NCBI GenBank assembly: GCA_964388035.1
Contig: CAYLZE010000089.1
Coordinates: 1,603-21,421, forward strand
Reading direction: 5' to 3'
From: an uncultured archaeon
GTDB lineage: Archaea; Asgardarchaeota; Lokiarchaeia; Sigyniarchaeales; SOKP01
Length of the DNA stretch: 19,819 nt
The notes under the pieces were generated by a model. The model saw only the letters and a list, made by a program, of their open reading frames with translations. It was not told the DNA's origin and did no database searches. A program made the position numbers and the translations under genes. Numbering within the stretch: the stretch's first letter is position 1; the number at the start of each line of letters is the position of its first letter. Shown one piece after another: positions 5,095 through 18,500 of this stretch.

Positions 5095-6825
5095 CTATTT
5101 GAATATTTTTACTCCCCTTTCAGATAATTTGGATAAAAAGTCGGGAAATTGATTAAATTCATTTTTTTCAACATTAATAAACTTTATAGAAGCATGCTTT
5201 TCTAAATCTGGTAAATCTGCTAAATTATTGCTTCTAAGAAATAAATATTTTAATGACTTCATTTTTTTGATTGATTGAGGAATTTCTGTTAGCAAGTTAT
5301 TTCCTAAATATAAATATTTCAATTGTTTTAATTCACCAATAGAATAGGGAAGGGTCCTTAATTGATTATAATATAGATATAATTGCTTTAGTGATCTCAA
5401 GGAGCCAATCTCTTCGGGAACTTCAATTAAATTATTTTTTCCGATATCCAATATTTCTAAAAACTGCAAGGAACCAATGGAACTTGGGATGGTTTCTAAA
5501 TTGTTGAATCCCATCATAAAATTTCTCAAAAATTTTAAATTACCGATAGATTCGGGAATTTGAGTTAATTCATTATTGCTTAAATCTAATTCTCTAATCG
5601 TTGTTATATTTCCAATGGAGTCCGGCAACTGTTTCAACTCATTTTTACTTAAATCCAAAATCTCCAGACTACTTAATTTACCAATCGAATCAGGCAGAAT
5701 CTCTAATTTATTATCATATAAATCAAGTTCTATTAAGGATGAAAGATTTCCGATTGTTTCAGGTAATTTGGTTAAACTGTTTCTATCTAATGCAAGAAGA
5801 GTCAGAGATTTTAAATTTCCGATTGTATCTGGAACATTTTCTAGTTGATTCATATCTAACATTAATCTATTGAGTAAAGTTAAATTTCCAATAGAGATGG
5901 GCAACGCTACTAAATTATTTTTAGATGCTTCTAATCGTTTTAGTAATGTCAAGTTCCCTATTGATTCAGGAAGGGAACTTAGGTTATTCATGCTTATGCT
6001 GAGATTTTCCAAATTATACAAATTACCTATTGCCTCTGGTAGTTCCGTTAAATTATTTTGATTCAATCCTAAGTAATTTAATTTTTGTAAGTTACCTATA
6101 GATTCGGGTAATTGAGTAATCTGATTATTTTTTAAAAAGAGGGAATGCAGAGAGGAAAGCGAACTTATAGATGATGGTAATGTTGAAATTTGATTATTTC
6201 TCACATTCAATCGTTTAAGGGATTTCAGAGAATTGAGGTATTCGGGAAGATAGGTTAATCGATTATTTCCTAAATAAAGGATTTCCAAGGATTCTAATGA
6301 AGTTATTTCTTCCGAAAGTTCTGTAATATTGTTTGAGCTAAGATCTAATAGTTTTAATGATCTATAATGTTTTATAACTGGAGGAATTTTATCGAATTGA
6401 TTTTCACTTAAGTCTAATATTTCCAAACTTGAAAGATTTTTTAATGATTCAGGTAATTCTTTAAGTATGTTCGATTCCAAATTAAGCTCTTTTAGAGATT
6501 GAAACGAAGAAATGTTATCTGGAATTTCGCTTATATTATTTCCGCTAAGATCTAAGATTTTTAAATTTAAATGGGATGGAATATCTCTTTCATTTAAGAT
6601 AATTTCATTACCTCTTAGGAATAATTCTTGCAATCCAGAAAAGGATTCAAGATATTTTGGAAAGATTCTAAGCCCGCAATAAAACAGACTTAATCCCTGA
6701 ACATAATTATTTTCAATTCTATATCCTATGATTTGAGGATTTAATATCTCTAATTTTGGAATAGGACGATGAATTAATCTTTCCATGGATCGTAAAATTG
6801 TATCCTCTTCCTTTGGTATTTCCAT
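5095..6825 (-). CDS. Leucine-rich repeat protein (about 22 repeats, mostly 23 aa)
   Basis: Tandem LxxLxLxxNxLxxLPxxIGxL units across nearly the whole 576 aa; no other domain visible. Confidence 0.95.
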   Translation of the reverse strand: MEIPKEEDTILRSMERLIHRPIPKLEILNPQIIGYRIENNYVQGLSLFYCGLRIFPKYLESFSGLQELFLRGNEIILNERDIPSHLNLKILDLSGNNISEIPDNISSFQSLKELNLESNILKELPESLKNLSSLEILDLSENQFDKIPPVIKHYRSLKLLDLSSNNITELSEEITSLESLEILYLGNNRLTYLPEYLNSLKSLKRLNVRNNQISTLPSSISSLSSLHSLFLKNNQITQLPESIGNLQKLNYLGLNQNNLTELPEAIGNLYNLENLSISMNNLSSLPESIGNLTLLKRLEASKNNLVALPISIGNLTLLNRLMLDMNQLENVPDTIGNLKSLTLLALDRNSLTKLPETIGNLSSLIELDLYDNKLEILPDSIGKLSSLEILDLSKNELKQLPDSIGNITTIRELDLSNNELTQIPESIGNLKFLRNFMMGFNNLETIPSSIGSLQFLEILDIGKNNLIEVPEEIGSLRSLKQLYLYYNQLRTLPYSIGELKQLKYLYLGNNLLTEIPQSIKKMKSLKYLFLRSNNLADLPDLEKHASIKFINVEKNEFNQFPDFLSKLSERGVKIFK

Positions 6826-14530: not shown

Positions 14531-14795
14531 CTTACCTTGCTTAGCAAATAGTTAAGAAAAAAAAGAATTTAAATTAAATAAGGTTTCATATCCCATAATA
14601 CTAATTTAAGTATGGATTTTAAAAAAATCTGTTTTGAGTATCTCATAGTGATGTTAGCAGTTTTTTGCTTTTTCTCCAATGAAGGACTGATAGAGAATTT
14701 AAATTAACGCCTAGATTAAGTTACCTTTTTATGAATGAATATTATATAAGTTAATTATGTAAATAAATCTACAATTACAAAACAAGGGAACTAAA

Positions 14796-16189
14796 TTGAA
14801 TAAATATGATATTATTATTGTAGACGGGGGACCTGGGGGCTCGATTGCTGGAAAACCGCAGCAGAATTAGGATTAAAGACCATTTTTTTCGAATGAGGGA
14901 GAAAACCCGGTGAAAAAAATTCCCCCGGTTGCGGTTTAGGACCCCGAATGTGGCGTGATTTTACGATTATGAAAGAATTGACATCCGATAAGTGCCCTTC
15001 AATGAGGGCTGGATCAGCTGCTAGGAATTATTTTGTTAATAAAGAAGGTGAAGTTGCAGGTTATATAATGGTAAGACCAATGGAATCTGTATCTTATGAA
15101 CCGGCTAAAAGTTGGATTACAATGAATGTATATAGAAGCGAATTCGATCCATGGATTGCTAATTTTGCCGTTAATGCTGGAGCTGAATTAAAATTATCCA
15201 CATTAGTTGTTGATCTAATCAGAGAAAATGGAATAAAGGTGTAATTGATGAAAAAGGCGTAAAATATGAAGCCCCCTTGTAATTGGAGCAGATGGCGTAC
15301 TTTCAAAGGTTGCTAAGAAAAGTGGATTAAGATCAAAATGGGCACAAGATCAAGTTACCGTTGTCCCACAATATGATTTTCAAGCACCGCCTGAGAAAAT
15401 TGATGACATTATGGGAGATGAGGCCTTGGCAGTATGGTGGTCAGCATTATTTCCTGCGTCTTATCAAGTTTTTTTTCATGATCGATTTCATCAAGGTTTA
15501 ACAAATTGTTAAATAAATGGGATAAAAATCCATTATTTTATCTTAATCATGTCATCAATTTAAAATATTATCAACGCCTTTTAAAAATTTTAGAAGCTAA
15601 ACCGACAGAATTGCAATCGCATCTTCTCCCTTGGTTACAATATCCTTATAATACACATGGACAGGGTGTTATTTTAATTGGAGATGCTGGAGGTTTTCCC
15701 TGTTCTCTTGAAGCAGAAGGCATTTATCCGGCCATGATAACAGGAAAGATAGCCGCAGAGGTGGCAGCAAATGCTATAACTGCAGAGGATGTATCTAAAA
15801 ATGCATTATCAAAATATGACGAAATGTGGAAAAAAACAAGTATAGGAGAAAAATTTGAAGCAGGAGAAGAACTATATAATATTTGGAAGGCACTTCCATT
15901 TAGCCCGCAAGAAACGATGAGCTGGTTTGTACCAATGTTCATGGAAGCCATGGGGGGTATTTATGATTGGTCAGAACCTCATGCGAAACGAGTTCGGCAA
16001 ATAGTTGCTCATATAAAATCTTACATGCCACGAGCAATTCCGTTTATTATGAAATATGTATTTCCTTTATTTGCAAAGATTTTTGAAGAAGATCTTGATA
16101 AAATGATGAATCCTTCAAAATTAATGGCTGTTCTTCCAAAGTTGATTGAATTGATTCCAAAAAGTAAAAAACGAAGCTTTAAGCATTAA
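14796..16189 (+). pseudogene. Disrupted FAD-dependent oxidoreductase, FixC/geranylgeranyl reductase family
   Basis: Reconstructed across frames: TTG start MNKYDIIIV(D)GGPGGSIAGK, then AAELGLKTIFFE*GRKPGEKN, ...ENGI, GVIDEKGVKYEA, LVIGADGVLSKVA, ...IGDAGG..LEAEGI. Four single-nt deletions (about 14855, 15236, 15274, 15508), TGA at 14894, and Asp in place of the first Gly of GxGxxG. 1394+4 nt = 466 codons. Confidence 0.85.
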
Positions 16190-16461
16190 AAATAAGAATT
16201 AATTTAGAAGGTTTAACGAAACACATTCCTGGAACAGGAAACTTCATTACCATGGCCCCTTAAAAATGTAATGGATATGGTTTATGTGTAAAAGTATGCA
16301 TCGTAAATTTATAGGGTATTCAAGAAGGTATTGCATTTATAAAGGAAGATTATAAAGAAAAATGTTTAGAATGTGGAAGTTGCGGTCAAGTTTGTGATTC
16401 GGGAGCAATAGAATTTAGATATCCTAGTGGTGGAACTGGAATAGTATATGAGAAGGGCTAA
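16186..16461 (+). pseudogene. Disrupted FixX-like 4Fe-4S dicluster ferredoxin
   Basis: One frame reads KIRINLEGLTKHIPGTGNFITMAP*KCNGYGLCVKVCIVNL*GIQ...KCLECGSCGQVCDSGAIEFRYPSGGTGIVYEKG*. Stops at 16261 and 16312, Tyr in place of a cluster Cys at 16276, no usable start (TTA at 16186). Confidence 0.85.
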
Positions 16462-16592: not shown

Positions 16593-17079
16593 TTAATAAT
16601 ATTCCGTTTCTACCATGGTGGTGCTGTTAACAAGCTCTTGCGCAGCCCTCGTTGCTCTCATTACCTTGGCCATGTTTCCTACAAGCTTAAACTTGCCTGC
16701 CATTAAGCCTTGAATCGGATCAAGCTCCTTTCTTAACACCTTTATCCAGTTATCATAAGTACCAGAAAATACAAATTCAGCACCCACTTTTTGACCCTCC
16801 TTTAATGGCCTAGGGGGTGTATTTGGAGGAAGAGCATCATATCCTTCATTATCAGCTAATGCCTTAGCACCCGTGCATTTGCCGTGCAAAAGTCCCACAA
16901 ACATCATTAATTTCTTTTTCAAATTGCCGCTTGGTTCGATTACGAAAACGAAATCGCCTTAGGGAAACTGGTATTAACCCAATTTATTCCCACCATGAAG
17001 CGGCATCGGCATAATTCTTATTATTATTTATAGCCTTGCAAAATTCCTTGGCCCATTCATTACTCGCAAATTTTGCCAC
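16593..17079 (-). CDS. SCP2 sterol/lipid-binding domain protein, split by a 28-nt putative intron (exon 1 17079-16987, exon 2 16958-16593; 152 aa joined)
   Basis: GTG start at 17079 after purine-rich AGAGGGA gives MAKFASNEWAKEFCKAINNNKNYADAASWWE; exon 2 reads GDFVFVIEPSGNL...GLLHGKC...YDNWIKVLRKELDPIQGLMAGKFKLVGNMAKVMR. The joined 'W-E-G-D-F-x-F' is typical of this SCP2 family. Confidence 0.85.
16959..16986 (-). other. Putative 28-nt mRNA intron (relaxed BHB type) in SCP2 gene: TAAATTGGGTTAATACCAGTTTCCCTAA
   Basis: Starts with in-frame TAA, length 3n+1, 7-bp stem AAATTGG/CCAGTTT, intron CCC pairs with exon GGG, removal gives WWE|GDF. Confidence 0.75.
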
Positions 17080-17190
17080 GTTCCATCCCTCTTATTAATT
17101 TTTTTTTTCAATTCTTTATATACTTAGTCAAAATATATTTTTTAATTCATTTCATTAAATTTAAAGTTTATTCTTCAGCAGATCTTTAAA

Positions 17191-17228
17191 TAATTCCAAT
17201 TTGGAAGAAAGGCTCAAAATTGGAATTA
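17191..17228. repeat. Perfect 12-bp inverted repeat TAATTCCAATTT-N14-AAATTGGAATTA between DUF1512 and SCP2 genes
   Basis: Arms at 17191-17202 and 17217-17228 are exact reverse complements. Function unknown. Confidence 0.7.
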
Positions 17229-17317
17229 CTTTTCATATAATTTAATGTGTCCTCTCCTATATAATTACTCTTCTAAAGAGGTTAAGAACTAACAAAAAAG
17301 TAAAAGTAAAAAATAAA

Positions 17318-18500
17318 TTAAATTCCGACACCGATGGTGTTTCCAATTCCAGCAAGTATTATCTTTGAACCCTTTTCGGTATAATTTCGAATCGTCATTT
17401 TAACTTTTTCCACGATTTTAGGAACGGATTGAGTGATGGGCCTGGTCATCGTTGTTATGGCATTTTCCAATGACTGCATGCATATGAGGGCATCAATAGG
17501 TATTTGCTTGTGGGTGGAGGAATCTTCAATATAATATTTCTCAACACCCACACCACCGATTGCCGCACCAACACCAATGGCTATGGAACCGGTTTTATCA
17601 CTACTTAATTTCAATCCGGCATCAATCATGATAATGCGCGAAATGGAATCACCTTGTTCATCGACTAATTTTTTAATGGCCTTTCCTGGTTTGCCCACAG
17701 TTCCTCCCGGACCTTTAGCTCGTACTACATAGACAATCCTATCCTCAAAGTTTACTTCTTGGACAATCGTGTCTTTTTCCGTTTCTAAAACTTTTACATC
17801 TCCATTCTGTACGACGTCTCTTATGAAGCTTCCCGCGACCATTGGTCCTAATGCATCACCAATAGGACTGCCTTCTGAAAATGCTTTAGTGGCTCTATAA
17901 TAAGATTTAGCCATTCCCATGATCATACCCATTTGCATGGATAATTGGAGGAGCAATATCATGGATTTAGTTTTTTTACCCATTATTAAATAATGCTTAA
18001 TCAACCGATGTACATAATCAACAGCCATTGCGGCCTCAAGTAAATTTTCAAGATTATTTCCCTGCGCCTTATCTGCAGTTGGGGCGAGTTCCTTTACTTC
18101 TTTTTCAAATCGATTGTCTCTAATATTCAAAATATGGTCAAATTTAGGGATAATTCCTTGAGGATCAAGTTGCACGGGGCCAATAGTCACGAAAGTCATG
18201 AAATCTTCAAGTTTTAGCATTAAATCCTTTTCAGTTTCCTTTTTGTCCGCGAATTTTTTAAAGTTAGATAAAAGTATCTGCTTACATTCTTCGTTCCAGC
18301 CGGTTAGTTCTGTTAAACCTTGTTCTATATCCTTTGCTGCTTTCCATGCTTGTATTTTTTTTAAGGAATTGAGATCATGCTGTCCCAATTTGTCCGTAAA
18401 ACATCGAGATAAATATCAAGAGGAAAAACAACAAATTCAGAATAAGTGCAAGCGGATCCGCTGTTTGTTGTCCTAATCCTAATTGAAAAATTGAATACAT
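17318..18500 (-). CDS. DUF1512 family membrane-anchored protein, split by a 31-nt putative intron (exon 1 18500-18392, exon 2 18360-17318; 383 aa joined)
   Basis: ATG 18500 gives MYSIFQLGLGQQTADPLALILNLLFFLLIFISMFYG (one TM helix); joined reading continues QKIQAWKAAKDIE. Body has DUF1512-type motifs: LDPQGII, PIGDALGP, GPGGTVG, IDAGLKL, GAAIGG, GIGNTIGV. Confidence 0.85.
18361..18391 (-). other. Putative 31-nt mRNA intron (relaxed BHB type) in DUF1512 gene: AAATTGGGACAGCATGATCTCAATTCCTTAA
   Basis: Contains in-frame TGA, length 3n+1, 8-bp stem AATTGGGA/TCTCAATT, central ACGG/CCTT pairing, exon stem TTTT/AAAA, removal gives FYGQKIQAW. Confidence 0.77.

What the first reader, a model, noticed from the sequence alone, without database searches (positions are those of the whole stretch)
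16959..18391. Candidate family of BHB-type micro-introns in protein-coding genes of a probable Asgard archaeon
Seen: two neighbouring unrelated genes are each interrupted once near the 5' end (after 93 and 109 coding nt) by a 28- or 31-nt insert. Shared architecture: exon ..GGA(A/C) | (T)AAATTGGG - variable loop - complementary arm - CC(C/T)TAA | exon. Loop sequences differ while pairing is retained. Both inserts are 3n+1 and contain an in-frame stop, and I found no other lesion in either gene. Established: archaeal splicing endonuclease EndA cuts after the 2nd nt of two 3-nt bulges separated by a 4-bp helix and RtcB ligates; the well-known mRNA case is crenarchaeal cbf5. Seen: that rule, in the same register for both, restores each frame; neighbouring registers that I tried do not. 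Inference: two in adjacent genes with shared end sequence suggest a genome-wide, possibly spreading intron family that gene callers would misread as truncated ORFs or pseudogenes. Caveat: each central helix has one mismatch, so the motifs are relaxed rather than canonical.
Basis: partly seen in the sequence, partly recalled or inferred. Interest (0 to 1): 0.93.

Follow-up and report, generated by a model that had tools for sequence, protein, structure and literature searches.

The report
tRNA-type mini-introns in Asgard protein genes
Two neighbouring protein genes of this Loki-type Asgard archaeon, and about 16 more sites in the same genome (some in essential genes), are broken by ~30-base hairpin inserts shaped like tRNA introns, so the messages very probably have to be cut and re-joined before translation; the papers I could search report this inside coding sequence for only one archaeal gene (cbf5).

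Summary
Observation confirmed. An SCP2-domain gene (28-nt insert) and a DUF1512 gene (31-nt insert) of a Lokiarchaeia/Promethearchaeia genome each break once. Dozens of orthologues are intact exactly at the bulge-helix-bulge (BHB) cut points. The same sites carry different, still-pairing inserts in three other species, and both exons of both genes stay under purifying selection. A motif-free spliced-alignment census found that well-aligned disrupting inserts are 28-37 nt (18 of 19). In 18 of 19 cases of that size the homology junction equals the BHB cut. Across 26 inserts the central helix pairs 93% (28-41% when slid), and the 3' bulge starts with A in all 26. This genome has about 18 such inserts, including its only pyrG, only dnaG, cdhA and main actin; a relative has 10 others. 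It encodes a two-subunit EndA with the broad-specificity loop, plus RtcB. Correction: the family is structural, not a shared sequence; the AAATTGGG motif is not enriched. No RNA data, so splicing is inferred (~0.88). The scan noted the same phenomenon before, in this and other Loki genomes.

The parts
16987..17079 (-). SCP2-domain gene, exon 1 (GTG start, 31 codons)
   Evidence: aligns to residues 1-31 of intact orthologues
16959..16986 (-). 28-nt BHB intron A: 1 bulge nt, 7-bp hairpin (16985-16979 with 16971-16965, 7-nt loop), central-helix strand CCCT (16964-16961), AA bulge; begins with an in-frame TAA
   Evidence: different 30- and 31-nt inserts at the same site in G008 and G012
16989..16992 (-). 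exon half of central helix A (TGGG; 3 G-C pairs and one U-U mismatch)
   Evidence: sequence
16593..16958 (-). SCP2-domain gene, exon 2 (121 codons and stop)
   Evidence: PF02036 E 5e-6; 83-85% identity to G001 and G024
18392..18500 (-). DUF1512 gene, exon 1 (ATG start, 109 nt, predicted membrane helix)
   Evidence: pN 0.074 vs pS 0.81 against G001
18361..18391 (-). 31-nt BHB intron B: 1 bulge nt, 8-bp hairpin (18390-18383 with 18374-18367, 8-nt loop), central-helix strand CCTT (18366-18363), AA bulge; in-frame TGA in the loop
   Evidence: homologous 31-nt insert at the same site in G001 with a new loop and the stem kept
18394..18401 (-). exon half of central helix B (ACGG, 18397-18394, one C-U mismatch) and outer-helix strand TTTT (18401-18398, pairs with 18359-18356)
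   Evidence: sequence
17318..18360 (-). DUF1512 gene, exon 2
   Evidence: PF07431 and PF23542; dN/dS 0.055 against G001

Best explanation
Both inserts are bulge-helix-bulge mRNA introns, two of a genome-wide set in Lokiarchaeia. In the pre-mRNA the insert folds into a 7-9-bp hairpin. Its four nt before the terminal dinucleotide pair with four exon nt just upstream of the 5' junction, leaving two 3-nt bulges. The (alpha-beta)2 EndA, whose L1/CSL loop tolerates relaxed helices, cuts after the second nt of each bulge; RtcB joins the exons; the full-length SCP2 (152 aa) and DUF1512 (383 aa) proteins are then made. Unspliced messages hit a stop within a few codons. SHOWN here: the inserts, their geometry, junction agreement with orthologues, selection on both exons, and the presence of the enzymes. 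FROM ESTABLISHED KNOWLEDGE: the EndA cut rule and RtcB ligation. INFERRED: that these RNAs are cut and ligated in vivo. How the introns arrive is unexplained.
For: Orthologues are intact exactly at the cut. In a motif-free census, well-aligned disrupting inserts are 28-37 nt in 8 of 8 (G000) and 10 of 11 (G024) cases; a 3-of-4 helix plus a stem of 7 bp or more occurs in 7/8 and 6/11, against 1/60 and 0/52 ordinary in-frame indels. The homology-best junction contains the BHB cut in 18 of 19; where homology allows one register only (3 cases), only the 2+1 cut fits (9-10 of 10 pairs vs 0-5). Over 26 inserts the central helix pairs 97/104 (slid 28-41%; shuffled mean 47, max 67), and the first nt of the 3' bulge is A in 26/26, a feature not used to pick them. 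Selection: DUF1512 G000 vs G001, both interrupted, exon 1 pN 0.074 / pS 0.81, exon 2 dN/dS 0.055; SCP2 interrupted pairs 0.05-0.25, like intact controls; 7 of 8 strain variants are synonymous. The only pyrG and only archaeal dnaG found are interrupted; pyrG is split at about the same model position in five more species. EndA alpha keeps the Tyr/His/Lys triad and aligns with the A. pernix loop including its lysine; a beta-like paralogue and RtcB are present.
Against: No RNA or protein evidence (one search lists no RNA holder). [quoted passage not shown] The BHB fold lies 1.1 (A) and 4.8 (B) kcal/mol above the predicted minimum, and B has a competing register that would remove 29 nt. Folding z-scores of single inserts are weak (-0.9 to -1.6). 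The pairing percentages use registers chosen partly by pairing, so they lean high.
Confidence: 0.88

Rival explanations
1. The inserts stay in the mRNA and the ribosome hops over them (programmed translational bypassing, as in T4 gene 60 or the byps of yeast mitochondria; from my own knowledge).
For: Size (28-37 nt), a hairpin and an early stop fit; intron A starts with a stop right after a codon.
Against: Neither window insert has matching take-off and landing codons, and only 7 of 26 have one within 3 nt. Bypassing does not explain the exon-intron 4-bp helix or the invariant bulge A.
Confidence: 0.04
2. The genes are dead or split: hairpin insertions knocked them out, or the second part is translated alone from an internal start (the DUF1512 frame is open from a TTG inside the insert).
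For: Public gene calls are the truncated forms; a TTG in the exon-2 frame exists in both G000 and G001.
Against: Both exons are under purifying selection and branch lengths are normal. The insert-encoded residues after that TTG differ at 5 of 9 positions between G000 and G001 while the stem is kept. Sole copies of pyrG and dnaG are hit. A truly decaying gene in this window shows scattered 1-2-nt frameshifts instead.
Confidence: 0.04
3. The inserts are removed precisely, but by another route (a different nuclease/ligase pair, or excision at the DNA level in part of the population).
For: The window introns are relaxed motifs; nothing here assays EndA.
Against: The geometry matches the EndA rule in three single-register cases and resembles this genome's tRNA introns (about 23-43 nt by ARAGORN). 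No DNA contig lacking insert A was seen in four runs, though contigs drop rare variants.
Confidence: 0.035
4. Assembly or sequencing artefact.
For: The genome is a MAG with 7% contamination.
Against: Insert A is bridged without gaps in contigs of two runs, one of which may be the source sample; homologous-site inserts occur in three other species.
Confidence: 0.005

Closest known systems
BHB intron of the cbf5 pre-mRNA of Desulfurococcales and Sulfolobales (PMC2738675)
   Same: Short (16-44 nt) intron inside coding sequence, BHB-like boundary, cut by the heteromeric EndA; same size range and the same risk of mis-annotation.
   Different: cbf5 is one gene at one inherited position. Here about 18 sites in unrelated genes of one genome, a different set in a relative, two introns in one gene (actin), a tight 28-37-nt length and patchy presence within a family. 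Splicing is proven for cbf5, not here.
BHB intron in the 5' UTR of Haloferax volcanii HVO_1309 (PMC7714728)
   Same: An mRNA substrate of the tRNA splicing endonuclease.
   Different: A single case, outside the reading frame, in a host with a different EndA type.
Asgard tRNA introns (bioRxiv 10.64898/2026.10.13.758758)
   Same: Same motif and enzyme type, repeated independent gains, the same position recurring in unrelated lineages, route of arrival unknown.
   Different: tRNA hosts only; word searches of that paper found no mention of mRNA introns or of Lokiarchaeia; median 22-23 nt.
Eukaryotic XBP1/HAC1 non-spliceosomal mRNA splicing (from memory, not tested)
   Same: A short intron that shifts the frame and is sealed by a tRNA ligase (RtcB in animals).
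   Different: Cut by IRE1 at loop motifs, not by a BHB endonuclease; one regulated target. No homology is claimed.

Membership tests
Archaeal BHB (EndA-spliced) introns | Precise insert absent from orthologues, whose removal restores the product | tested here: met
Archaeal BHB (EndA-spliced) introns | Two 3-nt bulges around a 4-bp helix, cut after the second bulge nt | tested here: met
   Set-wide: 97/104 pairs, 18/19 junctions, bulges of 2 or 4 nt generally fit worse
Canonical (strict) BHB | All four central pairs formed | tested here: not met
   Both window introns pair 3 of 4, so they are relaxed; 19 of 26 in the wider set and the G008 intron at site A pair 4 of 4
Archaeal BHB (EndA-spliced) introns | Flanking helix (intron and/or exon side) | tested here: met
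   Inner helix of 7 and 8 bp; outer helix 4 bp in B, none in A
Archaeal BHB (EndA-spliced) introns | Host encodes an EndA able to cut relaxed motifs, and RtcB | tested here: met
   Two EndA paralogues, alpha with the catalytic triad and L1/CSL loop lysine; RtcB E 9e-166. Sequence only
Archaeal BHB (EndA-spliced) introns | Spliced RNA in vivo or cleavage in vitro | not testable with these tools
   No RNA holder listed
cbf5 intron family | Located in cbf5 at the conserved position | tested here: not met
   Hosts are SCP2-domain and DUF1512 genes
Translational bypass elements (byps) | Matching take-off and landing codons | tested here: not met
   None for either window insert; 7 of 26 overall
Mobile repeat / MITE family | Multiple similar copies in the genome | tested here: not met
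   No second full copy; pairwise identity at shuffle level

The most novel reading that the evidence does not exclude
Lokiarchaeia run a genome-wide, non-spliceosomal mRNA splicing system in which ~30-nt BHB introns are still being gained (the same SCP2 site is occupied in lineages that do not form a clade) and in which EndA/RtcB activity gates essential genes such as pyrG, dnaG and actin, i.e. regulated mRNA splicing in the archaeal relatives of eukaryotes.
Probability: 0.25. Interest if true: 0.96.

Novelty: new variant of a known kind. Interest (0 to 1): 0.86.

Why it matters
In the papers I could search, archaeal splicing inside coding sequence is a one-gene exception (cbf5). Here roughly 1 in 100 well-conserved genes carries such an intron, among them CTP synthase, primase, CO dehydrogenase and actin. 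That would make mRNA splicing routine in the lineage close to the origin of eukaryotes, by a mechanism unrelated to the spliceosome. It also means Asgard gene catalogues hold hidden truncations: both window genes are filed as shortened proteins, which affects metabolic reconstructions and claims of gene loss. The test is cheap: junction reads in metatranscriptomes, and cleavage of 50-nt RNAs by recombinant EndA.

Tried and rejected
Sequence-motif scan (AAATTGGG...CCYTAA): not enriched, so rejected as the family signature. De novo BHB plus coding-score scans: only slight excess over wrong-frame controls (21 vs 14-16), not usable for counting; a first version timed out. ARAGORN with a lowered threshold gave noise; the default run was used instead. 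No RNA holder listed: no evidence either way. Insert B is covered by one DNA contig with only 15 nt on one side, so it is not counted as bridged. Excess of stop codons in 3n inserts (13 of 14 vs 8.9 expected): suggestive but biased by how I selected them, not used. Pattern hits in G005, G034, G057 and G136 show no clear hairpin and G005's reads as a membrane protein; treated as chance. Sigma-70 promoter scan was uninformative for an archaeon. Alignment used wrong coordinates for one row and was ignored. Seven literature searches found no report of Asgard mRNA introns; most subscription journals are not covered.

Full report
Source. Close relatives are recorded mostly as Promethearchaeota/Promethearchaeia (Lokiarchaeia) MAGs, some with other Asgard or 'uncultured archaeon' labels. 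The window's genome G000 is 5.47 Mb, 33% GC, 97% complete; its DNA is held best by salt-marsh metagenomes.

The observation. Both genes lie on the minus strand. Gene A is an SCP2-domain gene and gene B a DUF1512 gene. A has 93 coding nt, then a 28-nt insert (16986-16959) that begins with an in-frame TAA. B has 109 coding nt, then a 31-nt insert (18391-18361) with a TGA five codons in. Removing them gives 152 and 383 aa, 83% and 75% identical to intact orthologues. Each insert reads: one bulge nt, a 7- or 8-bp hairpin, four nt that pair with the exon just upstream (3 of 4 pairs), then AA. Insert A is bridged without gaps by contigs of two DNA runs, one of which may be the source sample.

Same sites in other species. 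Twenty-eight DUF1512 orthologues are continuous at the junction. G001 (same genus) has a 31-nt insert at the same place: 25 of 31 nt are identical although synonymous sites are near saturation; four changes lie in the loop, one turns a G-U pair into G-C, one sits at the mismatch of the central helix. At site A, two other genera (G008, G012) carry 30- and 31-nt inserts with different stems that still pair, while G001 has none. The three interrupted SCP2 genes are rejected as one clade (p-AU 7e-6), so the site changed at least twice: separate gains, transfer of the intron, or many losses.

Selection. For B, G000 vs G001 (both interrupted): exon 1 pN 0.074 / pS 0.81, exon 2 dN/dS 0.055. For A, interrupted pairs give 0.05-0.25 where computable, like intact controls. 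Seven of eight strain variants seen in DNA runs are synonymous in the spliced frame. A geranylgeranyl-reductase-like gene in the same window shows what decay looks like: four small frameshifts and a stop.

Genome-wide census without a motif. I aligned proteins of G024 (1.92 Mb fetched) and G001 to G000, and the reverse, allowing any insert of up to 90 nt. Well-aligned disrupting inserts are 28-37 nt in 8 of 8 (G000) and 10 of 11 (G024) cases. A 3-of-4 helix with a stem of 7 bp or more occurs in 7/8 and 6/11, against 1/60 and 0/52 ordinary in-frame indels; the single exception proved to be one of the actin introns. In 18 of 19 inserts the best junction by homology alone includes the BHB cut; in three cases with a single possible register only the cut after the second bulge nt fits. 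Over 26 inserts the central helix pairs at 97 of 104 positions (28-41% when slid; shuffles at most 67), with at least five pair types per column, and the first nt of the 3' bulge is A in all 26. These percentages lean high because registers were partly chosen by pairing; the invariant A and the length peak were not selected for.

Hosts. Thirteen G000 inserts are verified by homologues that span the junction, including dnaG, cdhA, a zinc alcohol dehydrogenase and a creatininase. Following leads from earlier scan notes I checked more: two inserts (33 and 31 nt) around a 25-nt micro-exon in the main actin, one in the only pyrG and one in a nadE. One more restores a GGLGPT motif but has no spanning homologue here. 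That makes 18. The only archaeal dnaG found is split. pyrG is frame-split at about the same model position in five other species and has an internal stop in a sixth (sequences not read). G024 has ten inserts at other sites. About 10 inserts in about 1,100 good alignments suggests 1 per 100 conserved genes.

The shared AAATTGGG is offset by one nt relative to the cut in the two genes and is not enriched in the genome; the shared 3' end follows from pairing with exon GG plus the AA bulge. The 18 inserts are no more alike than shuffles and have no second copies. This is a family of shape, not a young repeat.

Machinery. G000 has two EndA paralogues and RtcB. One EndA keeps the catalytic Tyr, His and Lys; its best match among solved structures is the heteromeric-type alpha subunit 3P1Z, which I take to be that of A. 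pernix, and the alignment covers the specific loop and its lysine. The other lacks the His, as a structural subunit would. That loop is reported for Asgard EndA and linked to cutting relaxed motifs (PMC5829648). Several tRNA genes of G000 carry introns of similar size.

Mechanism and doubts. The best reading is EndA cleavage and RtcB ligation of the pre-mRNA (0.88). Shown: inserts, geometry, junctions, selection, enzymes. Inferred: the reaction in vivo. Against: no RNA data; both window motifs are relaxed; the BHB fold is 1-5 kcal/mol above the predicted minimum; B has a rival 29-nt register, although its 3' bulge would start with U rather than the invariant A. Ribosomal bypassing lacks matching codons. 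Dead or split genes do not fit the selection data or the essential hosts. How the introns arrive is unexplained: they are too short to encode a mobility protein.

Comparison with what is known. It works like the cbf5 intron of Crenarchaeota (PMC2738675). A 2020 paper lists cbf5 as the only earlier archaeal mRNA case and adds one 5' UTR intron (PMC7714728). These are members of the relaxed BHB class by every sequence test I could run, not of the cbf5 family, and the RNA test is open. A 2026 preprint describes repeated intron gains in Asgard tRNAs only. Seven searches found no report of Asgard mRNA introns. Earlier AI notes of this scan describe the same phenomenon in other Loki genomes; they are not independent evidence. 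Verdict: new variant of a known kind, interest 0.86.

Noticed in passing
window ~14795-16189 (+): Geranylgeranyl-reductase-family gene, 80% identical to a 467-aa G024 orthologue but with four small frameshifts (~14853, 15233, 15274, 15507) and a TGA (~14894); the small ORF after it (~16200-16460) has two stops against its G024 match. Ordinary decay or assembly error; no BHB insert.
   Followed up: partly
G000 contig C5 ~43890-43978: The main actin gene has two BHB-shaped inserts (33 and 31 nt) around a 25-nt micro-exon; the G024 orthologue is continuous.
   Followed up: yes
G000 contig C37 ~632-662: The only CTP synthase gene has a 31-nt BHB-shaped insert; pyrG is split at about the same model position in G001, G004, G010, G016 and G023 and has an internal TAG in G006.
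   Followed up: partly
G000 contig C50 (+) ~290, ~19070, ~21722: Three inserts on one contig, in dnaG, a zinc alcohol dehydrogenase and a creatininase. G024 has its own intron at a different site of the same dehydrogenase.
   Followed up: yes
L043 and L042 (G008, G012): The SCP2 site W-E|G-D holds different introns in lineages that are not a clade; all three share the exon context TGGGAA|GGCGATTT, a possible insertion hot spot.
   Followed up: partly
G000, 18 inserts: Most lie in the 5' part of the gene (median relative position about 0.19), and 13 of 14 inserts of 3n length carry an in-frame stop; both may be partly due to how they were found.
   Followed up: partly
G000 whole genome: ARAGORN at default settings finds only about 22 tRNA genes, many mis-typed or with introns, suggesting further hidden tRNA introns.
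   Followed up: no
window 5095-6825 (+): A 576-aa leucine-rich-repeat protein (judged from the sequence), of the kind common in Lokiarchaeia.
   Followed up: no
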